This document shows, in pieces, positions 25,448 to 36,149 of a stretch of DNA of 64,000 bases. The notes beneath the pieces are model-generated. The model searched no databases. It was not told the DNA's origin and was given only the letters and a program-made list of their open reading frames with translations. The stretch comes from a virus. The stretch's first letter is position 1, and each line of letters starts with the position of its first letter. The stretch is from the IMG/VR virus record IMGVR_UViG_3300025018_000101, positions 32,001 through 96,000 of that record; one strand, 5' to 3'. A program made the position numbers and the translations under genes.

Positions 25448-25824
25448 GCAGCAACCACCACCGGTTCAACGAGTCCTTCAAGTGGTCCGAGCACATGGCG
25501 ACCGCCGGCTACAACGGCAACCCGTCCATTCCTCCGGACCACCCGCTGGCCAGGCTCTTCTCCGACGGGGCGCCCTCGGCTCCAGTCGGACCCGGGTTCG
25601 ACCCGAAGACGTCCAAGGTGCGCTTCCGGCGCTTCGACCTGGACGACGAGGAGGAGCGCGAGGACCTGGAGAACATCCTGACGGACTGCATGCGCGGCCA
25701 GGGCAAGTTCCTCGACAGCCAGACCCTACACACCACCCCTGACGGCCGTGCGATCGTCACGATCTGCTGGGTCGAGTGGGAGGTCCAAACGGCGAAACGG
25801 CCCAAGGGTCTGGACGACGTCTGA
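25444..25824 (+). CDS. Hypothetical protein
   Basis: ATGA overlap with portal; AGGAGG RBS. Confidence 0.7.
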   Translation: MSSNHHRFNESFKWSEHMATAGYNGNPSIPPDHPLARLFSDGAPSAPVGPGFDPKTSKVRFRRFDLDDEEEREDLENILTDCMRGQGKFLDSQTLHTTPDGRAIVTICWVEWEVQTAKRPKGLDDV

Positions 25825-25840
25825 GGAGAGGCAGGTCACG

Positions 25841-28261
25841 ATGGCACTGAAACCCGACGTCGTTCTTCAGCCGCACCAGGAGTCGGCACGCACGCGGTTT
25901 CGCGCCAAGCCTGGCTTGCTGATCAACCACGGCCTGGGCTCCGGCAAGACCTTGACGTCGATGGCGCTGGCGGAGGATGTCGGCGGCCGCGCCCTCGTCG
26001 TCGTGCCAGCGTCGCTGCAGGCGAACTACCGGGACCAGTTGCAGAAGTTCGTCACCGAGGACCGACACGGCGACTACGACATCGTCTCCTACGACAAGTT
26101 CAGGGCGGACCCCGAGTCCTATCTCGACAAGGAGCCGTCCGTCCTGATCGTCGATGAGGTCCACCGCCTGCGCAATCCGGGTAAGAACCGGGACGCCATC
26201 GAGATGGCCCGCAAGCGCATCCCGCGCATGGTAGGGATGACGGCCTCGCTCGCCTCGAACACGCCGCTCGAGTCCGTACCCCTGATCAACCTCGTCGCCG
26301 GCAAGAGCGTCATCTCGCAGGCTAAGTTCAAGAGGGATCACATCGGCGAGATCGAGGTGAAGCCTGGCCTCGCGGGCCGACTGCTCGGCGCCGAGTCGGG
26401 CTATGTGCCGGTCATCATCAACCGCAAGGGCCTGCACGACAAGCTCGCCCCCTTCGTCGACAGGTACACGGGCAGCGACGCGTACCGGAAGTCGCTGCCT
26501 GGTCGCGTCGACGAGGTCGTCGAAGTGCCCATGTCGGCCCACCAGAAGGACGTCTACGAGGGCATCATCAACACGAGCCCGGCGCTGGCGTACAAGATCC
26601 GGCAGAACCTCCCGCCGAGCAAGAAGGAGCTCAAGGACCTCAACGCCTTCCAGACCGCGGCGCGTCAGGTCATGAACGCCACCGAGCCGTACGTCGACGT
26701 CCGCGAGGGCCAGGACCTGCCCTCGATGTCGCCGAAGCTCCAGCGCGTCGCGGACGACCTGGCGGCACTGGCGAAGGACGACCCCAACTTCCGCGCCGTC
26801 GTCTACAGCAACTTCCTCGATGCGGGTACGCGCCCCGTGCTGCGCGCCACCGAGACGGCCTCCGGCCTGTACGAGGGCTCGGTGTCCCAGAAGGAGCGCC
26901 AGAGGGTCCTCGCGCGCTACCACTCCGGCGAGGCCCCCGTCCTCGGGCTCAGCCCGGCGGGTGGCGAGGGTCTCGACCTGAAGGGCACCAAGATGATGGC
27001 GGTGCTCGAGAGTCACTGGAACCCCGAGGTCACCAACCAGGCCATCGGCCGCGCCATCCGCTACAAGTCCCACGATCACCTCCCCGAGGACGAGCGCTCT
27101 GTCATCGTCCGCCAGTATCGGTCGGTCTACCCCGACTCGTGGCGCCACCGCATCTCAGGCCGCCCCACGTCCATGGACGAGTACATCGCCACTCGCGCCC
27201 AGGAGAAGGCCACCTTCAACGAGGACTTCATGAACGCACTCGACTCCAAGCCGCGCTCCCGCGGCGTCAAAGCCGCCTTCAAGGTCGCGGGCATCCCCGA
27301 GATGGCCGCGCGCCTGATGGACAGCGACCTCGTCAACTCCAACAGCCTCGGCTACTCCCTGCTCCGCGCCGCCCCCGGCGCCGCCCTCAGCGTCGCCAGC
27401 CTCGGCCTCGGAGCTGGCGTGGCCAGCAGTGAGGACCCCAACGCCCCGCCCCAGTACCGAGCCCAGGGCATGCTCGGCGCGGGCATCGGCATGGGACTGG
27501 CGGGCGCCTTCGCCCCCGCCGTGCTCAAGTCCATCGCGCTCCGTCCAAAGGGACTGATGCTGAACGCAGAGGGCATCGCGGCCGCCCCGCTCGGCGCCCG
27601 GGGCCGGGCGCTCCACCTGGACCCGGCGTTCCTCGACGCGCCGATTCACCCGTCGCACCCCCTGTCGTGGCGCGGGATGCCCTCGGTGGCGGAAGAGCTG
27701 GAGATGAACGGTGGCCGGACCGACAGGCTCCCTGTGACCGGGAACACGGTGCTCGACCTCATGGGCCGGCTCCAGGGTGACCGGCCTCACATCGACGGCC
27801 GCCTGCCCTGGACGGGCGAGAACGCCTTCGACGGCGTCAGGCCGTGGGAGGGGGAGCGCCTCCCTGCCGGCGCTCTGGGCGCAGACCTGGGCGACTACGG
27901 CGCGGAGATCCCTGTGCTCGGCACGTACGGCGACAGGCGCACGATGTCCGCCGCCTACAACACCTCGCGGCGCCAGACCGAAGCGGCCGTCGACGCCGCA
28001 CGAGCCGCCATCGCGAACGCTCCCGAGGGCGCTGACCTGGCCTCGCTCCAGGACGCCCTGGACGAGGCGGAGAGCTCCCACACCCCAGGGGTCTGGTCCT
28101 CGGACGCTACGAAGGCCGTCATGGAGACCAACCCAGAGACGGCCCTCGGCGTGGGCGGCCAACTCGCGAGCCTGGCTGCCAGTGGCCTCGCAGGCATCGG
28201 CGGCTGGTTCGGCGGCAAGGCCCTCGGCCGAGCCCGGGCTGAGCGAGGCGAAGGGACCTAA
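25841..28261 (+). CDS. SNF2-like SF2 helicase fused to a Gly-rich/hydrophobic C-terminal extension
   Basis: LQPHQ, HGLGSGKT, VDEVH, GGEGLDLK, QAIGRAIRYKSH; then KAAFKVAG and glycine-zipper-like segments. Confidence 0.85.
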   Translation: MALKPDVVLQPHQESARTRFRAKPGLLINHGLGSGKTLTSMALAEDVGGRALVVVPASLQANYRDQLQKFVTEDRHGDYDIVSYDKFRADPESYLDKEPSVLIVDEVHRLRNPGKNRDAIEMARKRIPRMVGMTASLASNTPLESVPLINLVAGKSVISQAKFKRDHIGEIEVKPGLAGRLLGAESGYVPVIINRKGLHDKLAPFVDRYTGSDAYRKSLPGRVDEVVEVPMSAHQKDVYEGIINTSPALAYKIRQNLPPSKKELKDLNAFQTAARQVMNATEPYVDVREGQDLPSMSPKLQRVADDLAALAKDDPNFRAVVYSNFLDAGTRPVLRATETASGLYEGSVSQKERQRVLARYHSGEAPVLGLSPAGGEGLDLKGTKMMAVLESHWNPEVTNQAIGRAIRYKSHDHLPEDERSVIVRQYRSVYPDSWRHRISGRPTSMDEYIATRAQEKATFNEDFMNALDSKPRSRGVKAAFKVAGIPEMAARLMDSDLVNSNSLGYSLLRAAPGAALSVASLGLGAGVASSEDPNAPPQYRAQGMLGAGIGMGLAGAFAPAVLKSIALRPKGLMLNAEGIAAAPLGARGRALHLDPAFLDAPIHPSHPLSWRGMPSVAEELEMNGGRTDRLPVTGNTVLDLMGRLQGDRPHIDGRLPWTGENAFDGVRPWEGERLPAGALGADLGDYGAEIPVLGTYGDRRTMSAAYNTSRRQTEAAVDAARAAIANAPEGADLASLQDALDEAESSHTPGVWSSDATKAVMETNPETALGVGGQLASLAASGLAGIGGWFGGKALGRARAERGEGT

Positions 28262-28310
28262 AGAAAAGCACCCCCACCCCCGGAGGGGCGGGGGTGGGGG
28301 TGCTTTTCTT
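28258..28310. terminator. Bidirectional terminator (TTTAG tail on minus strand)
   Basis: 22-bp inverted repeat AAGAAAAGCACCCCCACCCCCG / CGGGGGTGGGGGTGCTTTTCTT. Confidence 0.9.
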
Positions 28311-28311
28311 T

Positions 28312-28533
28312 CTAGACCGGCGCGGGCGCCGGCGTCGTCGTCGTCGTCGCCGGGCCGGCGGGGCCGGCGGGGGCGGCTGCGGCTGCGGCCGCAGCCGCAA
28401 CCACCGCCCCCGCCGCCGCCGCCGTCAGGCGACGACGCCGACGCCTGACGGCGACGACGGCGACGGTGGTTGCGGCGACGACGGCGACGGTGGTTGCGGC
28501 GGCTACCGCGACGACTACAGTTCGCTTTTCCAT
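28312..28533 (-). CDS. Small Ala/Thr/Val-rich membrane-like protein
   Basis: GGAGG RBS after a TTCG hairpin; repeated VAATTVAV, then poly-Arg. Confidence 0.55.
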   Translation of the reverse strand: MEKRTVVVAVAAATTVAVVAATTVAVVAVRRRRRRLTAAAAGAVVAAAAAAAAAPAGPAGPATTTTTPAPAPV

Positions 28534-28673
28534 GGTGTCCTCCTGTCCCCGAAGGGACATACGGGCGCCGCCTGGAATAGCGACGCCCCACCTTTCACCC
28601 TGTCCAGCACCCGACGACATGTCGAGCGCCTCCAGGGCGGACTTCCAGACCATCTAGGTCCTTCAGTCAAACT

Positions 28674-28681
28674 CTTATGCC
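28674..28681 (-). promoter_or_regulatory. GGCATAAG putative phage promoter
   Basis: Recurrent motif, followed by AG. Confidence 0.65.
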
Positions 28682-28812
28682 AGTTTTGTCCCGCCATTTG
28701 ACACTTTTCAGTGCCATCTAAAAGAGAGTCACCCATCACACGCTCCGCGGACGACGCGGGCAGTGGTTGTTTGGGTGCGCTCTTCTGCCTTGGGGTGTCG
28801 GCGCCAGCCCCT

Positions 28813-28899
28813 CTACGCCACGCGTGTCGTCCACGCGTCTTGTAGTCCCTGCCATTTTTCTAAGCGCCAGCAGGCGGCGCGTGGCATGCGTTTCATCAT
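28813..28899 (-). CDS. Possible 28-aa micropeptide MMKRMPRAACWRLEKWQGLQDAWTTRVA
   Basis: AGGAGG directly upstream of tandem ATGs. Confidence 0.3.
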   Translation of the reverse strand: MMKRMPRAACWRLEKWQGLQDAWTTRVA

Positions 28900-29179
28900 G
28901 CCTCCTGTTCTGATGCTCGTTGCCTTCATGTCGGTGGCATCATCGCCGACAGGGGGAGCCGTACGCCGGCAGCGGTCCAGTCATGACGCTCGGCATGGCT
29001 GGGGCTGGGTGGTTATTTGTTACCGCGCCGGCCACCGGGCGCGTGGAGTCAGGCTCATGGCCCCTCCTGTGACGCGCCCCCGGCAGGGGGAGCGCGGTAA
29101 CTTCGCTGTCTGCCTCGGCCTGCCCCGAGGTGGGTCTTGTTTACGCCTGGGCGCCGACCCTATGTCGTCCAGGACCCAG

Positions 29180-29240
29180 GCACTACTTCGGGAATCGAAC
29201 CCGACTCGGAGCGAACAGCTCCGGCGCTCCAGCGCAGTGC
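29180..29240 (-). ncRNA. Minimal tRNA-like element (GUU in anticodon position, reduced D-arm)
   Basis: 7-bp acceptor GCACTGC/GTAGTGC; CGGAG-CTGTTCG-CTCCG arm; T-arm TCGGG-TTCGATT-CCCGA. Confidence 0.55.
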
Positions 29241-29295
29241 GTAATGTGGGGGTATAGCAGAGGACATGCTATAGTCTACACCCCTCACACAATCT

Positions 29296-29314
29296 CTTAT
29301 GCCTACTTTATACC
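29296..29314 (-). promoter_or_regulatory. Tandem GGTATAAA / GGCATAAG putative phage promoters
   Basis: Motifs at 29307-14 and 29296-303. Confidence 0.6.
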
Positions 29315-29327
29315 TCATTATTGCAAT

Positions 29328-29353
29328 CTAAAAGAGGGCGCCACTGCGCCCTC
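29328..29353 (-). terminator. Hairpin + TTTTAG
   Basis: GAGGGCGC-4 nt-GCGCCCTC followed by TTTTAG. Confidence 0.8.
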
Positions 29354-29373
29354 ATGAACCCGCGCGGAGAGCC

Positions 29374-29607
29374 CTATGTGGGCTCCGCCTGCGCGGCCTC
29401 GGCGGCCGCGGACACCAGGACGGCGTCCTCCGGCGCGCCGGGCTCGACGCGCGCCCACCCGCGCGTCGCCGAGGCGGCGCGCAGGGCCGACCGCTGTCGG
29501 TGCTGCTCGGCCGCAGCACCGATGACGATCCCCGTCCCGAGGGCGCCGAGAACCGCGGCGACGCCCCCTACCACGAGGGCCACTACCGAACCGATCGGTC
29601 TATCCAT
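29374..29607 (-). CDS. Small single-TM protein
   Basis: AGGAG RBS, ATG 29607; hydrophobic SVVALVVGGVAAVLGALGTGIVIGAAA. Confidence 0.65.
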   Translation of the reverse strand: MDRPIGSVVALVVGGVAAVLGALGTGIVIGAAAEQHRQRSALRAASATRGWARVEPGAPEDAVLVSAAAEAAQAEPT

Positions 29608-29661
29608 ACCCGGCCCTCCTTCGGCCAGGTGCGACCGCGGCATGCGGTCACTGTTCAGAGG

Positions 29662-29669
29662 CTTGTACC
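29662..29669 (-). promoter_or_regulatory. GGTACAAG putative phage promoter (variant)
   Basis: One mismatch to GGTATAAG; upstream of 29607. Confidence 0.5.
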
Positions 29670-29727
29670 AACACGAGGGGTGTTGCCGACGGCCGCATCA
29701 GGGCCTTGTTCCGTGAGGCCGCCTCAT

Positions 29728-29765
29728 CTAAAGAAACGCCCCCCCGGAGGAGAGGGTGGCGTTTC
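29728..29765 (-). terminator. Hairpin + TTTAG
   Basis: GAAACGCC...GGCGTTTC followed by TTTAG. Confidence 0.75.
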
Positions 29766-30026
29766 CCCCGCCGCCCCGTCGGGCGACAGTGGGACCGAGC
29801 GTCCAGCGCTCGCTTCGAGACAGGGCCTCTCTTCCCTGCCTCGGGCCTCCCTGAGGCCCAACACCCCCTCCGTCGAGGGGGTCGGCCCTGCCACGTCTGA
29901 CAGGGCCGGACGACCGTCGCCATCGAGAAGACGCACCCCGCGAGCTCGTCCCGGGGAAGGAGATTCCACCGACCTCCTGGGGTGCGTCTTGTCGACGGCG
30001 GCGAGACTAATTGCCTCGCTCATACT
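29766..30026 (-). ncRNA. Putative structured ncRNA (hairpin array)
   Basis: About 8 consecutive stem-loops, including a ~21-bp stem (29918-39 with 29979-30000) and three GACG-loop hairpins, lying between a promoter motif and a terminator. Confidence 0.55.
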
Positions 30027-30034
30027 CTTATACC
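30027..30034 (-). promoter_or_regulatory. GGTATAAG putative phage promoter
   Basis: Recurrent motif, followed by AG. Confidence 0.65.
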
Positions 30035-30063
30035 TGTCCAGATGCGATGATTGGCACTACCTG

Positions 30064-30101
30064 CTAAAAGAGAGCGACGGGGCAGAAGCCCCGCCGCTCT
30101 C
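30064..30101 (-). terminator. Hairpin + TTTTAG
   Basis: GAGAGCGGCGGGGC-TTCT-GCCCCGTCGCTCTC-TTTTAG. Confidence 0.85.
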
Positions 30102-30107
30102 CTCCGC

Positions 30108-30290
30108 CTACGCCGCCCGCCTCCTGACGGCGACGTAGGCGCCCACGGCCCTTTGAGGCACGTGGGGCCCGCCCGCTCGGGGCGGGCAATACCGGCGCCA
30201 GACGAGTCTGGCGCCGGCGAATTTCTGGGCGGCGTCGAGGGTGCTGAACACCGCGACGCCGCCCGGGGCCTGGACGCAGTACAGAATCAT
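30108..30290 (-). CDS. Small hypothetical protein (MILYCVQAPGG...)
   Basis: AAGGAGG RBS before ATG 30290. Confidence 0.55.
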   Translation of the reverse strand: MILYCVQAPGGVAVFSTLDAAQKFAGARLVWRRYCPPRAGGPHVPQRAVGAYVAVRRRAA

Positions 30291-30362
30291 GACGGCCTCC
30301 TTGGCCTCCGGCGAGTTCGACAGCCCCATGCTGTCGTCCCATCTCGCCGGGTGTGTCAAAGC

Positions 30363-30370
30363 CTTATGCC
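30363..30370 (-). promoter_or_regulatory. GGCATAAG putative phage promoter
   Basis: Recurrent motif upstream of 30290. Confidence 0.6.
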
Positions 30371-30372
30371 AC

Positions 30373-30401
30373 TCGACTGAGACAGCGGCAGGACGTACAG
30401 T
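30373..30401 (+). promoter_or_regulatory. sigma70-like promoter of the RNAP/head operon
   Basis: TCGACT-17 nt-TACAGT. Confidence 0.5.
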
Positions 30402-30437
30402 AAGCGAGGAGCGCGTTCTTGCCACGGGAGATCATCG

Positions 30438-33400
30438 ATGGGCGACTGGGGATTCACGAAGCTGGCCGAAGAGGTGCGACGGCTTGTCCAGGAGACGCAG
30501 GCCGAGACTCCCGAGGGGGAGGGGCCGGCGTTCCACGGTAAGATCAGCGACATCAAGGGGCTGCGCTCCGTGCTGGCCCCGGCGTCCGAGCGACGCGATG
30601 CCATCCGCAAGCAGGCCGTGGCCTCGATGTACAACGTCTTCCCGATCAAGGGGACGAACTACGACGTCACCGTGCACGACGTCAGGGTCGACGCGGCCGA
30701 CTACACCCTCGAGGACATGAAGGAGGCGGTGCTGGCCCGCAAGTCGCTGACCGAGCCCATCAAGGCCACGGTCCGCATCACCGACAAGGCCTCCGGCAGG
30801 GTACTGGACGAGCAGAAGAAGACGCTCGGCCACCTGCCGTTCATGACGGACCACCACACCTTCATCCTCGACGGGAACCCGTACGCCCTCTCGAGTCAGT
30901 TGCGAGTCAAGCCGGGGGTGTACACCCGGATGCGCAGCAACGGGGACCTCGAGAGCGCGTTCAACCTGGGGCGCGGGGCGAACTTCCGCCTGTTCATGGA
31001 CCCGATGCGCGGCGTCTTCCACATCCAGTACGGGGCGACCAAGACGCCCCTGTACCCGATCCTGGTCGCACTCGGCGTGCAGGAGTCGGTCATCGCGCAG
31101 GCGTGGGGCAAGGACCTGGCGGACGCCAACCGCGCGGCATCCCGCGGCAAGGAGCGCCTCGCCCTGGCGACGCTCTACGCCAAGGTCGTCCCGATGTCGA
31201 AGCGCTCGAAGGCCCCCAGCGAGGCTGACATGGTGGCGGCCATCCGGGAGGCGTATGGCAACACCGTGCTCGACCCGGCGGTGACCAAGGCCACGCTGTC
31301 CATGGCGGTCTCCTCGGTGACGCCCCTGGCCCTGCTGGCCGCCAGCAAGAAGATCCTCGGCGTCTACAACGAGACCGAGCAGGAGGACGACCGCGACGAC
31401 CTCCAGTTCAAGACGCTGCACACCCCGGACACCTTCGTCAAGGAGCGCATCGAGAAGGATGCCGCTCGGGGTGTCCTGCTGCGGAGCCGCTTCAAGCTCA
31501 ACCGCACCGCCGACCCGAAGGTGAAGGACGTCCTGCCTTCGGCGCCGTTCTCCGGAGCGCTTCGGAGCCTCATCACCCAGAGCTCCCTGGCGCAGGCCCC
31601 CAGCCAGATCAACCCTGTCGAGCTCATCGATGGCGCGGTCAAGGTCACCAGCCTCGGCGAGGGCGGCATCTCCTCGCTGCGCTCGGTCCCCGAGTCCACG
31701 AGGTCGCAGCACGCCAGTCACCTCGGCATGCTCGATCCGGTGCGCACTGCAGAGTGCTACGACGACCAGACGGAGGTCTACACGCGCGCGGGGTGGGTGC
31801 GCTGGCCTGACGTCGATGAGAACGCGGAGTTCGCCTGCCTCATCGACGGCCGCCTGGCGTTCCATCCGCCCCTGCGCCTGATCTCCGCGCCCTACGACGG
31901 TGAACTGCTGTGCGTGACGACGAGTCGGCGCGTCGGGTACGCGGTTACGCCCAACCACCGCCTCCACGTTCGGCCCACGGACCTGCGCGGCAATGCGTCG
32001 TGGCGCATTGTCACCGCGGACGTAGCACACACGCGCGCGGGGTGGCAGTACCAGATCGGACACGAGCCGCTGGAGGGGGACGGGACTACGGAGTTCCACC
32101 TTCCGGCCGTCACGCAGACGCTGGTCTCGGATGACGCCGCCGGGAGTCGGGCTACGCTCGGCACACGCCGCCTGGCGACACAGGCAGCGCCGCCGATCCC
32201 CCTCGAAGTGTGGGCGGAGTTCCTCGGGTGGTACATCTCCGGGGGCAACACGGTGTACAAAAGTGCGGGGATGGATTCTCGGTACGCGGTCAGGATCACG
32301 CAGCGTGAGAGCGCCAACCCCGCCGAGTGCTCGCGGATTGAGGCCCTGCTCGACGCCCTCCCGTGGACGTGGTCGAAGTACGCCGACGCGTACTCCATTC
32401 CTTCCAAGCAGCTCGCTGAGTACTGCCGCCGCTTCGGCCGGTCGGTGGACAAGTTCCTCCCGTCAGAAGTCTTCACCTGGCCGGTCGCTGCCCGTGAGCG
32501 CCTCCTGTCGGCGCTCATGGCCGGTGACGGGCGCACGTACTCCAAGCGCAAGGTCGGGCACAGTTACACGGAGGCGGTATACAGTACCGTGAGTCCCCAG
32601 CTCGCACGGGATGTCGAGGCGCTCGCCATAGGCCTCGGGAGCGCCGTGAGCATCACGACGCAAGTCGACAACCGGGAGGAGCGGTACCGGGACGTCTACG
32701 ACGTCAGGGTCATCCAGGCGAAGGTAGCACCGGTCCGGACACGCAGGCACATGACGCGGCCTGACGGGAGTCGCGGCTACGTGGCGAACGCGGCGTTCAC
32801 GACGCTCGACTATCACGGCACGGTGTACTGCGCTACGGTACCGGGAGGGCTCCTGTACGTCCGCCGGGGTACGCCCAGCGGCCACTGGAACGGGAACTCG
32901 GGCGCGGTCGGCGTCGACCTGCGGTCGGCGTCCTACCTGCACGTCGACGAGCGCGGCAACATGTACACGCCGCTCATCAACGTCCGCACGAAGAAGGTGG
33001 AGCTCGTCTCGGCCGCGACGATGAGCAAGAGCAAGGTCGCGTTCGAGGGGACGGACCTGAAGAAGACGCGGGTCCCGGCGATGGACGGCGGGCAGGTCCG
33101 CGACGTCCTGTCGAAGGACGTCGCCTTCATGCTGCCGTCCACCCTGTCGAAGCACTCCCCGTCGAGCTCGCTCGTGCCGATGATGGGGGGCTCCCAGGGC
33201 AACCGCCTCATCATGGGCAGCAAGCATCAGACCCAGGCGGTGCCCCTGAAGCACCGCCAGGCGCCGCTCGTCCAGGTGGCCGCCGGTGATGGCACGTCCA
33301 TGGAGGCCAAGTTCGCCGAGTGGCACATCCCCAAGGCCCTCGAGGCGGGCACCGTCCAGAAGATCGACATGAGCCGCGGCCGCATCATCATCGCGCCCAA

Positions 33401-36149
33401 GAGCGGCGGAGACCCCGTGGCCTACGAGTTCGCCAACAACTACCCACTGGCCAGCAAGACCCGACTCCACCATGACGTCACGCTCAAGCCCGGCGATACG
33501 GTGACGAAGGGCCAGGTCCTGGCCGACAGCAACTTCACCCAGGGCGGGGTGATGGCCAACGGCCGGAACCTCCACACGGCCTACATGGCCTACCACGGCC
33601 TGAACAGCAACGACGCCTTCGTCATCTCCGAGAGCGCCTCGGAACTCCTGACGTCCGAGCACATGTACCGAGAGACCCTGAGCCTGCAGCGCGGGGTCGA
33701 GACGAGCGTCGAGATCCACAAGCGCCACTTCGGCTCCCGCTTCCCCGCCACCGCCTATGGCAACCTGGACGCGGACGGGGTGGTCAAGAGCGGCACCGTC
33801 ATCAAGACCGGCGACCTCATCGTCGCCGCCGTGGTCAAGCGGACGCCCTCGGCCGAGGACGCCATGCTCGGCCGCCTGAACAAGTCCCTCGTCAAGCCCT
33901 ACGGCGACGCATCGATCACCTGGACCCACGGCGGCGACGGCAGGGTCACTGAGGTCCACAAGTCGAAGAGCTCGGTCACCGTTCTGGTGTATACTGAGGA
34001 AAAGATGAAGGTCGGGGACAAGCTCTCTGGCAGGTTCGGCAACAAGGGGGTCGTCTCGAAGATCATCCCCGACGACCAGATGCCACGGGATGAGTCCGGC
34101 AGGCCTATCGAGTTGATCGCGACGTCCGCGGGCGTGGTCTCGCGCATCAACCCTGCCCAGGTCCTCGAGCGGGCGTATGGCAAGGTGGCGCTCAAGACGG
34201 GGCAGCCGATCCTGGTCGACCAGTACCCGAAGCACAGCATGGTGGAGCACGCCACCGCGCTGCTGAAGGAGCACGGCGTCAAGGACAAGGAGACGCTCTA
34301 CGACCCCATCTCGGGCAGGTCGGTGCCAGGCATCGCGGTCGGGCCGACGTTCCAGATGAAGATGTTCAAGTCCACGGACACGAACTTCTCGACGCGGTCC
34401 ACGGGGTCGTACGACGTCAACGAGCAGCCAACCAAGGGCGGCGAGGCGGGCGCCAAGAGCATCGGCCGTATGGACTTTTACGCCCTGGTGGGTCACGGCG
34501 CGACGAACCTGCTCAAGGAGAGCGCGTCGATCAAGGGCCAGCGCAACGACGAGTACTGGAAGCGGGTCCAGATGGGACTGCCCGAGGGCCCCGTGAAGAC
34601 CCCCTTCGCCTGGAGCAAGTTCCAGTCGATGTTGACTGGCGCCGGCATCAACGTGACGAAGAAGGGCAACACCCTGACCCTGGCTCCGCTGACGGACAAG
34701 GACGTGATGGCGCTGGCGCCACGAGCCATCCAGAACGCTGGTGTCGTCAAGCCGAAGGTGACTCGCGAGGGCACGCAGGTGGTCCCGGAGACGGGTGGCC
34801 TCTTCGACCCGGTGGCGACAGGCGGCGTGTCCGGAACGAAGTGGAGCCGCATCGACCTCGTCGAGCCTGTGGTGAACCCCATCTTCGAGGACACGGTCAA
34901 GACGCTGACCGGGATGGGAGGCAAGGAGTTTGACGCCTTCCAGCACGGAGCTGGCGGCCACGAGATGCGCAAGCGCTTGAACGCCATCGATCTGGACGAC
35001 AAGAGCGCGGAGCTGGAGGCGTCCATCAGGAGGAACCTGCGCGGGGGTCCCGGCAGGGAGGCGCTGGTCGACCGCGACGTCAAGACGCTCAAGTCGGTCC
35101 GGGCGCTGAAGAAGATGGGCATGCAGGCCGGGGATGCCTACGTCATCTCCACGGTGCCGGTCGTGCCTCCTGTCATGCGCGGGGTGGTGTCGGGGACGGG
35201 CGGGGCGGTGATGGTGTCGGACGCGAACTTCCTCTACAAGGACCTGCTGCTGACCAACAACGCCATCCGTGACATGCCGCAGGAGCTCCGGGCCATCGAG
35301 GACATGAGCGACCATCGCCGCAACCTGTCCGCCGCAGTCGCGGCCGTCGTGGGCACCGGCGACCCCATCAACGACAAGACGAAGGCGCGGGCCGTGCGCG
35401 GGTTCATGCAGCAGGCCGCCGGCATCCGGAGTCCGAAAGAGGGCTACTTCCAGAGCCGGCTCATCAAGCGGCGCCAGGACCTGTCGGGTCGCGGCACCAT
35501 CGCTCCGGACCCGAGCCTGGGCATTGACTCGGTCGGTCTGCCGGAAGAGATGATGTGGACGCAGTTCAAGCCGTTCGTCATCAAGAACCTGGTCAAGCGG
35601 GGCTACTCAACCAACGACGCCCTCCGCATGGTCGACGAGAAGCACCCGACGGCGAAGATCGAGCTCCTTGAGGAGGCCAAGCGGCGCCCCATCCTGATGA
35701 ACCGGGCCCCGACGCTGCACCGCTACAACATGGTCGCGGCCTACGCCACGCCGGTCGACGGCAAGACCATCTTCATCAGCCCCTTCTACGAGAAGTTGGG
35801 CAACGCGGACTACGATGGCGACGCCATGCAGGTCCACGTCCCGGTCACGGACAAGGGCATCGCGGACGCCAGGCGCATGACCATCAGCGCCCTGGCCATG
35901 CACGACGGGAGCAAAGGCGTCGCCATCGCAACTCCGCAGCACGAGGCGATCATCGGCACGTACATGGCGACCAAGCCGATGCTGCCCGGCCCTGCGCGCG
36001 CCTTCAAGACGCGTGGCGATGCGCTGGCCGCCTACGGGCGGGGCGAGATCAAGATCAACTCCCCCATCACGGTGGATAAGACAACCCAGACGGCCATCGA
36101 GGCCCCGGTGACCGTCTTCCCCGCCGCGGGGACCGGCAAAGCGCACTGA
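30438..36149 (+). CDS. rpoBC: Phage RNA polymerase: beta fused to N-terminal beta', intein-containing
   Basis: beta motifs SQLRVKPGVY, GNRLIMGSKHQTQAVPL, GDKLSGRFGNKGVVS; beta' motifs GGLFD, DLSGRGTI, NRAPTLHR, catalytic NADYDGD. Confidence 0.93.
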   Translation: MGDWGFTKLAEEVRRLVQETQAETPEGEGPAFHGKISDIKGLRSVLAPASERRDAIRKQAVASMYNVFPIKGTNYDVTVHDVRVDAADYTLEDMKEAVLARKSLTEPIKATVRITDKASGRVLDEQKKTLGHLPFMTDHHTFILDGNPYALSSQLRVKPGVYTRMRSNGDLESAFNLGRGANFRLFMDPMRGVFHIQYGATKTPLYPILVALGVQESVIAQAWGKDLADANRAASRGKERLALATLYAKVVPMSKRSKAPSEADMVAAIREAYGNTVLDPAVTKATLSMAVSSVTPLALLAASKKILGVYNETEQEDDRDDLQFKTLHTPDTFVKERIEKDAARGVLLRSRFKLNRTADPKVKDVLPSAPFSGALRSLITQSSLAQAPSQINPVELIDGAVKVTSLGEGGISSLRSVPESTRSQHASHLGMLDPVRTAECYDDQTEVYTRAGWVRWPDVDENAEFACLIDGRLAFHPPLRLISAPYDGELLCVTTSRRVGYAVTPNHRLHVRPTDLRGNASWRIVTADVAHTRAGWQYQIGHEPLEGDGTTEFHLPAVTQTLVSDDAAGSRATLGTRRLATQAAPPIPLEVWAEFLGWYISGGNTVYKSAGMDSRYAVRITQRESANPAECSRIEALLDALPWTWSKYADAYSIPSKQLAEYCRRFGRSVDKFLPSEVFTWPVAARERLLSALMAGDGRTYSKRKVGHSYTEAVYSTVSPQLARDVEALAIGLGSAVSITTQVDNREERYRDVYDVRVIQAKVAPVRTRRHMTRPDGSRGYVANAAFTTLDYHGTVYCATVPGGLLYVRRGTPSGHWNGNSGAVGVDLRSASYLHVDERGNMYTPLINVRTKKVELVSAATMSKSKVAFEGTDLKKTRVPAMDGGQVRDVLSKDVAFMLPSTLSKHSPSSSLVPMMGGSQGNRLIMGSKHQTQAVPLKHRQAPLVQVAAGDGTSMEAKFAEWHIPKALEAGTVQKIDMSRGRIIIAPKSGGDPVAYEFANNYPLASKTRLHHDVTLKPGDTVTKGQVLADSNFTQGGVMANGRNLHTAYMAYHGLNSNDAFVISESASELLTSEHMYRETLSLQRGVETSVEIHKRHFGSRFPATAYGNLDADGVVKSGTVIKTGDLIVAAVVKRTPSAEDAMLGRLNKSLVKPYGDASITWTHGGDGRVTEVHKSKSSVTVLVYTEEKMKVGDKLSGRFGNKGVVSKIIPDDQMPRDESGRPIELIATSAGVVSRINPAQVLERAYGKVALKTGQPILVDQYPKHSMVEHATALLKEHGVKDKETLYDPISGRSVPGIAVGPTFQMKMFKSTDTNFSTRSTGSYDVNEQPTKGGEAGAKSIGRMDFYALVGHGATNLLKESASIKGQRNDEYWKRVQMGLPEGPVKTPFAWSKFQSMLTGAGINVTKKGNTLTLAPLTDKDVMALAPRAIQNAGVVKPKVTREGTQVVPETGGLFDPVATGGVSGTKWSRIDLVEPVVNPIFEDTVKTLTGMGGKEFDAFQHGAGGHEMRKRLNAIDLDDKSAELEASIRRNLRGGPGREALVDRDVKTLKSVRALKKMGMQAGDAYVISTVPVVPPVMRGVVSGTGGAVMVSDANFLYKDLLLTNNAIRDMPQELRAIEDMSDHRRNLSAAVAAVVGTGDPINDKTKARAVRGFMQQAAGIRSPKEGYFQSRLIKRRQDLSGRGTIAPDPSLGIDSVGLPEEMMWTQFKPFVIKNLVKRGYSTNDALRMVDEKHPTAKIELLEEAKRRPILMNRAPTLHRYNMVAAYATPVDGKTIFISPFYEKLGNADYDGDAMQVHVPVTDKGIADARRMTISALAMHDGSKGVAIATPQHEAIIGTYMATKPMLPGPARAFKTRGDALAAYGRGEIKINSPITVDKTTQTAIEAPVTVFPAAGTGKAH
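31755..32897 (+). mobile_element. Intein (381 aa) with LAGLIDADG-type endonuclease domain
   Basis: Starts CYDDQTEVYT; block B VTPNHRL; FLGWYISGG and LMAGDG; VYCATVP...WNGN followed by Ser. Removal restores DPVRTAE-SGAVG, equivalent to the beta TPEG motif. Confidence 0.9.

What the first reader, a model, noticed from the sequence alone, without database searches (positions are those of the whole stretch)
29728..30034. Candidate ~300-nt hairpin-array ncRNA with repeated GACG loops and GGA motifs
Seen on the minus strand, in order: GCGAGGC/GTCTCGC hairpin; ~21-bp stem CGCCGTCGA-C-AAGACGCACCCC / GGGGTGCGTCTT-C-TCGATGGCG enclosing an AGGAGGT/ATCTCCT hairpin; CGGCCCTGTCA-GACG-TGGCAGGGCCG; ACCCCCTC-GACG-GAGGGGGT; TGGGCCTC-AGG-GAGGCCCG; GGCAGGG/CCCTGTC; CGAGCG-CTGGA-CGCTCG; TGTCGCCC-GACG-GGGCGGCG; terminator. 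Mismatches are mostly G-U compatible on this strand. The 99-aa ORF here lacks an RBS and runs through the terminator. Inference: a protein-sponge RNA; ACGGA/AGGGA/CAGGA words recall CsrB/RsmZ-type decoys.
Basis: partly seen in the sequence, partly recalled or inferred. Interest (0 to 1): 0.72.

Follow-up and report, generated by a model that had tools for sequence, protein, structure and literature searches.

The report
Orphan phage hairpin-array RNA, GACG loops
A 155-kb uncultivated groundwater phage carries a short unit, with its own promoter and terminator and no gene, whose ~290-base transcript would fold into a row of nine or ten hairpins, three or four of them capped by the same GACG loop; it looks like a new non-coding RNA, but it is not a CsrB-type sponge, and neither its expression nor its function has been shown.

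Summary
The minus strand of 29728-30034 folds at -195 kcal/mol, z = -8.6 against dinucleotide shuffles, and is among the most structured stretches of the 155-kb genome.

The stretch is one of five back-to-back minus-strand mini-units. Each opens with a promoter-like word, GGYAYAAG-N3-DTG, which distant relatives of the phage also carry. Each closes with a hairpin followed by TTTAG.

The 99-aa ORF is not a gene:
- GC3 is 0.69, against 0.81-0.91 in the neighbouring small genes.
- The codon score is negative in all frames.
- It has no relative among 1.84 billion protein representatives.
- Its ATG is part of the promoter word.

The CsrB/RsmZ reading fails. GGA is not enriched (8 found, 6.4 expected; 2 fully unpaired), no Rfam family matches, and the phage has no CsrA.

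The unusual feature is a cluster of GACG-tetraloop hairpins. All three long-stem examples on this strand of the genome lie here, two of them abutting. GACG tetraloops are the self-complementary kissing loops of retroviral packaging signals.

Caveats:
- No relative carries the element, so covariation cannot be tested.
- The neighbouring coding unit is just as structured.
- Function is inferred only.

The scan has noted other phage hairpin-array RNAs, but none like this one.

The parts
30021..30056 (-). Promoter-like region. The core word GGTATAAGAGTATG lies at 30034-30021, with a TGCCAA word 18 nt upstream of the TATAAG hexamer. The likely transcript start is at or near the G at 30021.
   Evidence: The pattern GGYAYAAGNNNDTG occurs 4 times in the window against 0.09 expected, all on the minus strand in this cluster. 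The 8-mer is 15 minus vs 1 plus in the genome. The extended word is 24 minus vs 2 plus in 80 relatives, mostly just upstream of the RNAP gene and divergent from it. The start site is inferred, not mapped.
30001..30019 (-). H1: a 7-bp hairpin at the 5' end, two bases after the inferred start.
   Evidence: MFE and centroid folds. A similar 5' hairpin follows the same promoter word at window 71763.
29919..29999 (-). H2: a long helix of 8 bp, a 1x1 C/C mismatch, then 12 bp. Its apical part holds an AGGAGG word and a complementary pyrimidine word.
   Evidence: inverted repeat I1.
29909..29924 (-). An alternative 6-bp mini-hairpin (two G-U pairs) capped by a fourth GACG loop. It competes with the base of H2.
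   Evidence: Hairpin scan with stem >= 5. The MFE fold instead draws a 3-bp hairpin at 29918-29909.
29883..29908 (-). H3: an 11-bp hairpin with a GACG tetraloop.
29863..29882 (-). H4: an 8-bp hairpin with a GACG tetraloop. It abuts H3 with no linker, forming a tandem GACG hairpin pair.
29843..29859 (-). H5: a 7-bp hairpin with a 3-nt AGG loop.
29817..29842 (-). H6: a 9-bp hairpin with a purine-rich 8-nt loop. Its arms repeat the arms of H3 in swapped order.
   Evidence: direct repeat D2 and inverted repeats I5 and I8.
29796..29812 (-). H7: a 6-bp hairpin with a CUGGA loop, the only apical hairpin loop holding a whole GGA.
29764..29794 (-). H8: a 9-bp hairpin (two G-U pairs) with a GACG tetraloop, extended by 4 outer pairs.
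29728..29763 (-). Intrinsic-terminator-like hairpin (6 + 5 bp) followed by UUUCUUUAG. Its pyrimidine-rich loop (CCUCUCCUCC) is 9/10 complementary to the H6 loop.
   Evidence: Terminator scan. TTTAG is 20 minus vs 3 plus in the genome, and 17 of the 20 sit behind a strong hairpin. I8. Two near-identical contigs differ here only by 1 nt in the G-run.

Best explanation
The stretch is a self-contained transcription unit of the phage that makes a ~290-nt non-coding RNA rather than a protein.

Transcription would start at the family-wide promoter word GGYAYAAG-N3-DTG, at about 30021. It would stop at the hairpin + TTTAG terminator, at about 29730. The RNA folds co-transcriptionally into nine or ten abutting hairpins, with a 5'-terminal and a 3'-terminal hairpin that should make it long-lived.

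Its working parts are most likely the three or four hairpins capped by the same GACG tetraloop, two of them stacked end to end. I propose that the RNA is a multivalent platform. The GACG hairpins would be bound either by each other, through loop-loop kissing via the self-complementary CG as in gammaretroviral packaging signals, or by a host or phage hairpin-binding protein that is thereby titrated.

The unit lies in a hypervariable cluster of small, separately promoted genes next to the phage RNA polymerase gene. That is the kind of place where host-takeover functions sit.

Shown: the anatomy, the non-coding status, the promoter and terminator grammar, and the uniqueness of the GACG cluster. 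Inferred: transcription, the start site, stability, and the whole mode of action.
For: Structure:
- z = -8.6 and -8.2, with a well-defined fold.
- Among the most structured windows of the genome.
- The minus strand is 27 kcal/mol more stable than the plus strand, with 7 G-U pairs against 3.

Unit bounds:
- The promoter word occurs 4 times against 0.09 expected, only on this strand of this cluster.
- It is conserved in relatives that share only ~40-56% RNAP identity, 24 minus vs 2 plus.
- The terminator signature TTTAG is 20 vs 3, with 17 copies behind strong hairpins.

Non-coding status:
- GC3 is 0.69 and the codon score is negative in all frames. Neighbouring small genes have GC3 0.81-0.91 and positive in-frame scores.
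- The ORF has no relative among 1.84 billion representatives.
- No gene was called here on two other assemblies.
- The ATG is the DTG of the promoter word.

GACG cluster:
- The only 3 minus-strand hairpins in the 155 kb with a stem >= 7 and a GACG tetraloop are all here.
- With stem >= 5 there are 4 within 140 nt. No pair lies within 200 nt anywhere in 2.8 Mb of relatives' loci.
- GACG tetraloops are documented kissing loops, and tandem GACG hairpins are a known motif (PMC7357161, PMC5874298, PMC516450, PMC7599994).
Against: - No relative with this element exists in the collections searched, so there is no covariation or conservation evidence.
- The neighbouring coding unit is even more structured (z = -11.6). 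Hairpin richness is therefore a property of the cluster and does not itself mark a functional ncRNA.
- The G-U asymmetry of this unit alone (7 vs 3) is not significant.
- The kissing or protein-binding role of the GACG loops rests on analogy with retroviral RNAs, not on any test.
- The host is unknown.
Confidence: 0.4

Rival explanations
1. The unit has structure but no trans-acting function. It is an ORF-less or decayed member of a cluster whose transcripts, or DNA, are all selected or prone to be hairpin-rich. The hairpins would then serve nuclease resistance, insulate closely packed promoter-terminator cassettes, or block read-through from the flanking plus-strand genes.
For: - The coding unit next door is as structured or more so (z = -11.6).
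- Units C and E are structured too, and the whole of 28.1-30.4 kb ranks top in the genome.
- In relatives the same promoter almost always drives small ORFs, not RNAs.
- The plus strand also folds far better than chance (z = -6.6).
Against: - The unit keeps a complete promoter and terminator and near-perfect stems, which is not expected of a decaying remnant.
- Three or four hairpins with unrelated stems share one loop, a coincidence of roughly 1e-5 or less given loop usage in the genome.
- No remnant of protein similarity to relatives' small proteins was found.
Confidence: 0.3
2. It is a base-pairing regulatory sRNA. The pyrimidine-rich loop of the terminator hairpin (CCUCUCCUCC) acts as an anti-Shine-Dalgarno seed that blocks ribosome binding sites of host or phage mRNAs, in the manner of CcsR ('cuckoo') or C-rich Gram-positive sRNAs. 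The hairpin array only provides stability.
For: - A C/U-rich word is exposed in the last hairpin.
- There is a weak Rfam match to CcsR1 at 29731-29807 (14.3 bits, E = 1.4).
Against: - The CcsR1 score is far below its gathering score of 65.3, so the match is at chance level.
- Only one such loop is present, and it is 9/10 complementary to the H6 loop of the same RNA, which suggests an internal contact.
- No extended complementarity to any phage transcript was found beyond chance 11- to 16-mers.
- The host is unknown.
Confidence: 0.1
3. It is a DNA-level element. The palindromes would act in the double- or single-stranded genome, for example as protein binding sites, as a replication or packaging signal, or as an injection pause, and the RNA would be irrelevant.
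For: Both strands fold far better than chance, and most stems are perfect Watson-Crick palindromes.
Against: - The element sits exactly between a promoter word and a terminator.
- The minus strand is favoured by 27 kcal/mol through G-U pairs.
- Stems differ in sequence, so there is no common operator.
- There are no iterons and no AT-rich unwinding stretch, and the GC skew has no inflection here.
- There is no second copy in the genome.
Confidence: 0.1
4. It is a CsrA/RsmA-sequestering sponge of the CsrB/RsmZ kind.
For: There are several hairpins in a row and a few GGA-containing words. One GGA lies wholly in a hairpin loop, at 29804.
Against: - GGA is not enriched (8 vs 6.4 expected), and only 2 of the 8 are fully unpaired.
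- No Csr/Rsm Rfam family matches even at E <= 10.
- The phage has no CsrA.
- The recurrent loop is GACG, not A(N)GGA.
Confidence: 0.03
5. It encodes a small protein: the 99-aa ORF from the ATG at 30023, or an 81-aa form from the GTG at 29969 behind an AGGAGG word.
For: The frame is open. AGGAGG lies 3 nt before an in-frame GTG. One gene-calling pipeline did predict the 99-aa product.
Against: - GC3 is 0.66-0.69 and the codon score is negative in every frame, unlike the three neighbouring small genes.
- The only hit among 1.84 billion representatives is itself.
- No Pfam family matches.
- The ATG belongs to the promoter word and probably precedes the transcript start.
- The SD spacing is 3 nt, against 5-7 nt in the real genes here.
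- The ORF runs through the terminator.
- Two assemblies have no gene call at this place.
Confidence: 0.04

Closest known systems
GACG-hairpin pair (SL-C/SL-D) of gammaretroviral packaging/dimerisation signals (MoMuLV/MoMuSV; PDB 1F5U, 2L1F as cited in PMC7357161)
   Same: Two abutting stem-loops each carry a GACG tetraloop, with further structured hairpins around them. GACG is self-complementary through its CG, and in retroviruses it gives loop-loop kissing that helps RNA dimerise.
   Different: This is a DNA phage of bacteria, and the element is a free-standing ~290-nt transcript, not a genome leader. It has three or four GACG hairpins rather than two, and none of the PAL/DIS palindromes of the retroviral signal. 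Kissing has not been tested. Common descent is not suggested; this is at most convergence on a loop.
CsrB/CsrC/RsmX/Y/Z protein-sponge sRNAs
   Same: It is a non-coding RNA made of many consecutive hairpins ending in a terminator, and titration through repeated motifs is a possible mode of action.
   Different: The defining repeated A(N)GGA loop motif is absent, no covariance model matches, and no CsrA is in view.
CcsR1-4 ('cuckoo') RNAs, Rfam RF02791
   Same: It has GC-rich hairpins and a CCUCC-type pyrimidine word in the last hairpin loop.
   Different: The match is 14.3 bits against a gathering score of 65.3. There is one such loop rather than several. The RNA is four times longer, and the context differs.
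Small stable or scaffold RNAs of phages (from memory: T4 species 1/2 RNAs, T5 RNA1-3, phi29 pRNA, which multimerises by loop-loop pairing)
   Same: It is a phage-encoded non-coding RNA with compact structure. For pRNA, function depends on intermolecular loop-loop contacts.
   Different: There is no sequence or architectural similarity. It is not in a tRNA array and is not linked to the packaging genes by any evidence.

Membership tests
CsrB/RsmZ-type CsrA sponges | Many GGA (A(N)GGA) motifs, mostly in hairpin loops or single-stranded linkers | tested here: not met
   8 GGA against 6.4 expected from composition. Two are fully unpaired and one is in an apical loop.
CsrB/RsmZ-type CsrA sponges | Match to a Csr/Rsm covariance model | tested here: not met
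   There is no gathering-score hit in the window, and no Csr/Rsm family among the 11 weak hits at E <= 10.
CsrB/RsmZ-type CsrA sponges | A CsrA/RsmA partner protein is present | tested here: inconclusive
   PF02599 is absent from the 155-kb phage record. The host is unknown, so its CsrA status cannot be tested.
CcsR1 (RF02791) | Score at or above the family's gathering threshold | tested here: not met
   14.3 bits against 65.3, E = 1.4.
Retroviral-type GACG hairpin pair (functional analogy only) | Two adjacent stem-loops, each capped by a GACG tetraloop | tested here: met
   H3 (29908-29883) and H4 (29882-29863) abut with no linker, and both have GACG loops in the MFE and centroid folds.
Retroviral-type GACG hairpin pair (functional analogy only) | Loop-loop kissing or dimerisation through the CG of GACG | not testable with these tools
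   This needs native gels, AUC or NMR of the transcript and of loop mutants.
Independent sRNA gene (promoter, no ORF, intrinsic terminator) | Own promoter and own terminator | tested here: met
   At the sequence level only. The promoter word is enriched and conserved in the family. The hairpin + U-tract + TTTAG signature is present. Transcript ends are not mapped.
Independent sRNA gene (promoter, no ORF, intrinsic terminator) | No protein-coding signal | tested here: met
Independent sRNA gene (promoter, no ORF, intrinsic terminator) | Structure conserved through compensatory changes in relatives | not testable with these tools
   The only other copies are 99.9% identical. The next relatives share 56% RNAP identity and lack the element.
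REP/REPIN-like dispersed palindromic repeats | Multiple dispersed copies in the genome | tested here: not met
   BLAST against the phage's own genome finds only the element itself and its own internal inverted repeat.

The most novel reading that the evidence does not exclude
A bacteriophage makes a dedicated RNA that self-assembles through retrovirus-style GACG kissing tetraloops. With three or four loops per molecule it would be multivalent and could form dimers, chains or a condensate. That assembly would serve as a scaffold or decoy during host takeover. It would be the first natural use of this minimal two-base-pair kissing motif outside retroviruses, and a rare case of a functional RNA homo-oligomer in a phage.
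Probability: 0.1. Interest if true: 0.8.

Novelty: new variant of a known kind. Interest (0 to 1): 0.5.

Why it matters
Phage non-coding RNAs are few and mostly unexplained. This one has clean bounds, an extreme fold and a repeated loop with a known physical behaviour, namely self-complementary kissing. That gives a concrete bench test which is cheap to run.

The work also supports a promoter word and a terminator signature shared across a large, uncultivated family of phages that encode a fused beta/beta' RNA polymerase. Those signals would help annotate early units in that family.

If the RNA proves to be a structured filler, the finding still shows that transcripts of this early cluster, coding or not, are under unusual pressure to be hairpin-rich.

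Tried and rejected
- **Rfam.** There was no hit at gathering scores in the whole window, and only chance-level hits at E <= 10. There is no tRNA or tmRNA.
- **Relatives.** The phage collection by blastn, IMG/VR by the RNAP N-terminus, by both flanking small proteins and by an exact 24-mer of H3 found nothing. Two other contigs are 99.9% identical and are useless for covariation. Five syntenic loci at ~55% RNAP identity and 80 IMG/VR loci hold no counterpart and no GACG hairpin cluster. BLAST against the whole records of the five nearest relatives gave only chance hits, plus the shared promoter and terminator words.
- **Decayed gene.** tblastn of the relatives' small proteins against 28200-30450 found nothing.
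- **Expression.** Three aquifer metatranscriptome runs, held as assembled contigs, cover only 28780-29164, which is the neighbouring unit. They do not cover this element.
- **Antisense targets.** Within the phage genome there are only chance 11- to 16-mers.
- **GACG as a bare word.** It is common in this GC-rich DNA. Only its use as a tetraloop on long stems is unusual.
- **Origin reading.** There is no skew inflection, no iterons and no AT-rich stretch.
- **Covariance model.** I did not build one. A single-sequence model of ~300 positions was unlikely to calibrate in time or to add to the direct hairpin scan.

Full report
**Where it lies.** The window is bases 32001-96000 of a 155,236-bp uncultivated virus record of about 68% G+C. 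DNA runs from groundwater and aquifer metagenomes hold it. The flagged stretch lies in a 2.2-kb region between two plus-strand genes. One is an SNF2-type helicase (25748-28261). The other is a 1903-aa fusion of RNA polymerase beta with the first half of beta', carrying a LAGLIDADG-like insert (30438-36149).

**Observation.**
- The 307-nt stretch folds at -195.3 kcal/mol, against -145.6 ± 5.8 for dinucleotide shuffles (z = -8.56).
- From the likely start (30021) to 29728, z is -8.18 with 200 shuffles.
- 108 base pairs involve 72% of the bases, and the mean probability of the MFE pairs is 0.91.
- In a scan of the whole genome with 300-nt windows, corrected for G+C, these windows rank among the top five of 1550 on the minus strand.
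- The plus strand folds less well (-169, z = -6.56). The 27 kcal/mol gap comes partly from G-U pairs, 7 on minus against 3 on plus. For this unit alone that asymmetry is suggestive, not significant.

**Context: a cluster of mini-units.** I tested this.
- The 8-mer occurs 15 times on the minus strand and once on the plus strand of the genome.
- The extended word GGYAYAAGNNNDTG occurs 4 times in the window against 0.09 expected, all on the minus strand within 28668-30370.
- The same word, usually TGGTATAAG-N3-RTG, recurs in relatives whose RNAP is only 40-56% identical and whose G+C ranges from 0.40 to 0.67. The count is 24 on the minus strand against 2 on the plus strand in 80 IMG/VR loci. It typically lies 50-80 nt upstream of the RNAP gene and divergent from it, and several copies lie in the five syntenic loci fetched first.
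- TTTAG occurs 20 times on the minus strand against 3 on the plus strand, and 17 of the 20 follow a strong hairpin.

So the flagged stretch, here called unit B, is bounded by a family-conserved promoter-like word (30034-30021) and by the genome's typical terminator (29763-29728). Which polymerase reads the word is not known. It resembles an extended -10 element but ends in G instead of the critical T. Being invariant across hosts of very different G+C, it fits the phage's own enzyme. That last point is inference.

**Not a gene.** Six lines of evidence argue against the 99-aa ORF.
- GC1/2/3 is 0.71/0.67/0.69, and a codon-usage score trained on 47 long genes of this genome is negative in all three frames (-0.32, -0.52, -0.39 bits per codon).
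- The small genes of the neighbouring units have GC3 0.81-0.91 and positive in-frame scores (frame plot).
- Among 1.84 billion protein representatives the ORF matches only itself, and it has no Pfam family.
- Gene callers left the place empty on two other assemblies.
- Its ATG is the conserved DTG of the promoter word. That DTG sits about 50-80 nt upstream of the downstream genes' start codons in L005 and several other relatives' units, so it is a promoter or initiation feature. If transcription starts at its G, the ATG is not even in the RNA.
- An in-frame GTG behind AGGAGG has a 3-nt spacer, where the real genes here have 5-7 nt and use ATG.

**The distinctive feature.** Strong folding alone does not set unit B apart. 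The coding unit A next door (30064-30357) folds with z = -11.6, and units C and E are structured too. What is unique to unit B is loop identity.
- The genome has 354 minus-strand hairpins with a stem of at least 7 pairs and a 4-nt loop. Only three are capped by GACG, and all three are here (29908-29883, 29882-29863, 29789-29768).
- With stems of at least 5 pairs, a fourth appears at 29924-29909. It competes with the base of the long helix.
- That gives four GACG hairpins within 140 nt, the first three spaced 21 and 23 nt apart.
- In 2.8 Mb of relatives' loci (both strands) such hairpins occur at 0.046 per kb, and never two within 200 nt.
- The stems share no sequence, so the common element is the loop.

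In the literature, GACG tetraloops are the conserved apical loops of the tandem SL-C/SL-D hairpins of gammaretroviral packaging signals. They are self-complementary. They form kissing dimers held by only two intermolecular G-C pairs with flanking adenine stacking, and they contribute to RNA dimerisation and packaging (PMC7357161, PMC5874298, PMC516450, PMC7599994). H3 and H4 abut without a linker, which is the same tandem arrangement.

Two further internal relations were seen. The H6 loop is 9/10 complementary to the pyrimidine-rich loop of the terminator hairpin. H6 also carries the arm sequences of H3 in swapped order.

**The CsrB/RsmZ reading.**
- GGA occurs 8 times against 6.4 expected. 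Two copies are fully unpaired, and one lies in an apical loop.
- No Csr/Rsm model appears even at E <= 10.
- The phage has no CsrA.
- The one weak family hit that touches the element, CcsR1, scores 14.3 bits against a threshold of 65.3.

Membership in these families is rejected. A decoy function using another motif is not excluded.

**Comparative evidence.** The only other copies are 99.9% identical. Within the element they differ by a 1-nt deletion in the G-run of the terminator. The next relatives share 56% identity in the RNAP N-terminus. They keep small minus-strand genes under the same promoter at this position but have no counterpart of unit B. Covariation therefore cannot be tested, and the element is an orphan of this lineage, sitting in a hypervariable accessory slot.

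**Mechanism.** I commit to this reading: a stable, non-coding, promoter-to-terminator RNA whose repeated GACG hairpins are its recognition modules. It would act as a multivalent platform, through GACG-GACG kissing or by titrating a hairpin-binding protein.
- I put about 0.65 on 'it is a non-coding RNA gene'.
- I put about 0.4 on the package including a GACG-based mode of action.

The main rival (0.3) is that the hairpins only reflect the cluster-wide pressure for structured transcripts, or insulation, and that unit B has no trans function. Smaller rivals are an anti-Shine-Dalgarno sRNA acting through the terminator loop (0.1), a DNA-level element (0.1), a small protein (0.04) and a CsrA sponge (0.03).

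**Novelty.** No described family fits. The general kind, a phage-encoded structured RNA, is known, and this scan has noted other phage hairpin-array RNAs on unrelated DNA. A cluster of GACG tetraloop hairpins in a phage transcript appears to be new. The case is limited by the lack of expression and conservation data.

Noticed in passing
window 28718-29303 (minus): The neighbouring unit D is also ORF-poor and structured (z = -3.9). It contains a tRNA-like element at 29180-29240 with a perfect T-arm (weak Rfam tRNA-Sec hit of 18.9 bits, not called by ARAGORN). Contigs from three aquifer metatranscriptome libraries cover exactly 28780-29164, at 100% identity and nothing else in the 2.4 kb laid. 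This suggests an abundant RNA just downstream of the tRNA-like element.
   Followed up: partly
window 28668-30370 (minus); also L005-L008, L011-L072: The promoter-like word TGGYAYAAG-N3-DTG is conserved across a large family of uncultivated phages with a fused beta/beta' RNAP. It usually lies divergent from the RNAP gene and just upstream of it.
   Followed up: yes
whole genome; in the window e.g. 28258-28262, 28718-28722, 29328-29332, 29728-29732, 30064-30068: Terminators of minus-strand units end in a hairpin followed by YYTTTAG. TTTAG is 20 minus vs 3 plus in the 155 kb, and 17 of the 20 follow a strong hairpin. The same 'TTTAG, then promoter' grammar is seen in a relative at 48% RNAP identity.
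   Followed up: partly
window 30064-30357 (minus): Unit A encodes a 73-aa protein with good codon statistics, yet its mRNA is itself an array of long perfect hairpins (z = -11.6), several of them inside the reading frame. The arginine-rich C-terminal half of the protein is encoded by those hairpins.
   Followed up: partly
window 71577-71763 (minus): This is another mini-unit with the same promoter word. It has a 5' hairpin resembling H1 of unit B, an RBS, a 17-codon ORF and a strong TTTAG terminator.
   Followed up: no
window 30438-36149 (plus): The RNAP beta/beta'-N fusion is 1903 aa, against ~1450-1570 aa in most relatives. The extra ~400 aa include a weak LAGLIDADG_3 match at residues 689-761, so an intein-like insert is likely.
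   Followed up: no
window 48346 and 49262 (minus): Two identical 60-nt contexts around a GGTACAAG word lie 916 bp apart, so there is a direct repeat in this part of the window.
   Followed up: no
window 28315-28500: This is a very GC-rich (0.78) low-complexity stretch with GACGAC/GCCGCC-type repeats inside and after the small unit-E ORF. It gives the strongest folding signal of the region, and assemblies appear to be cut there.
   Followed up: no
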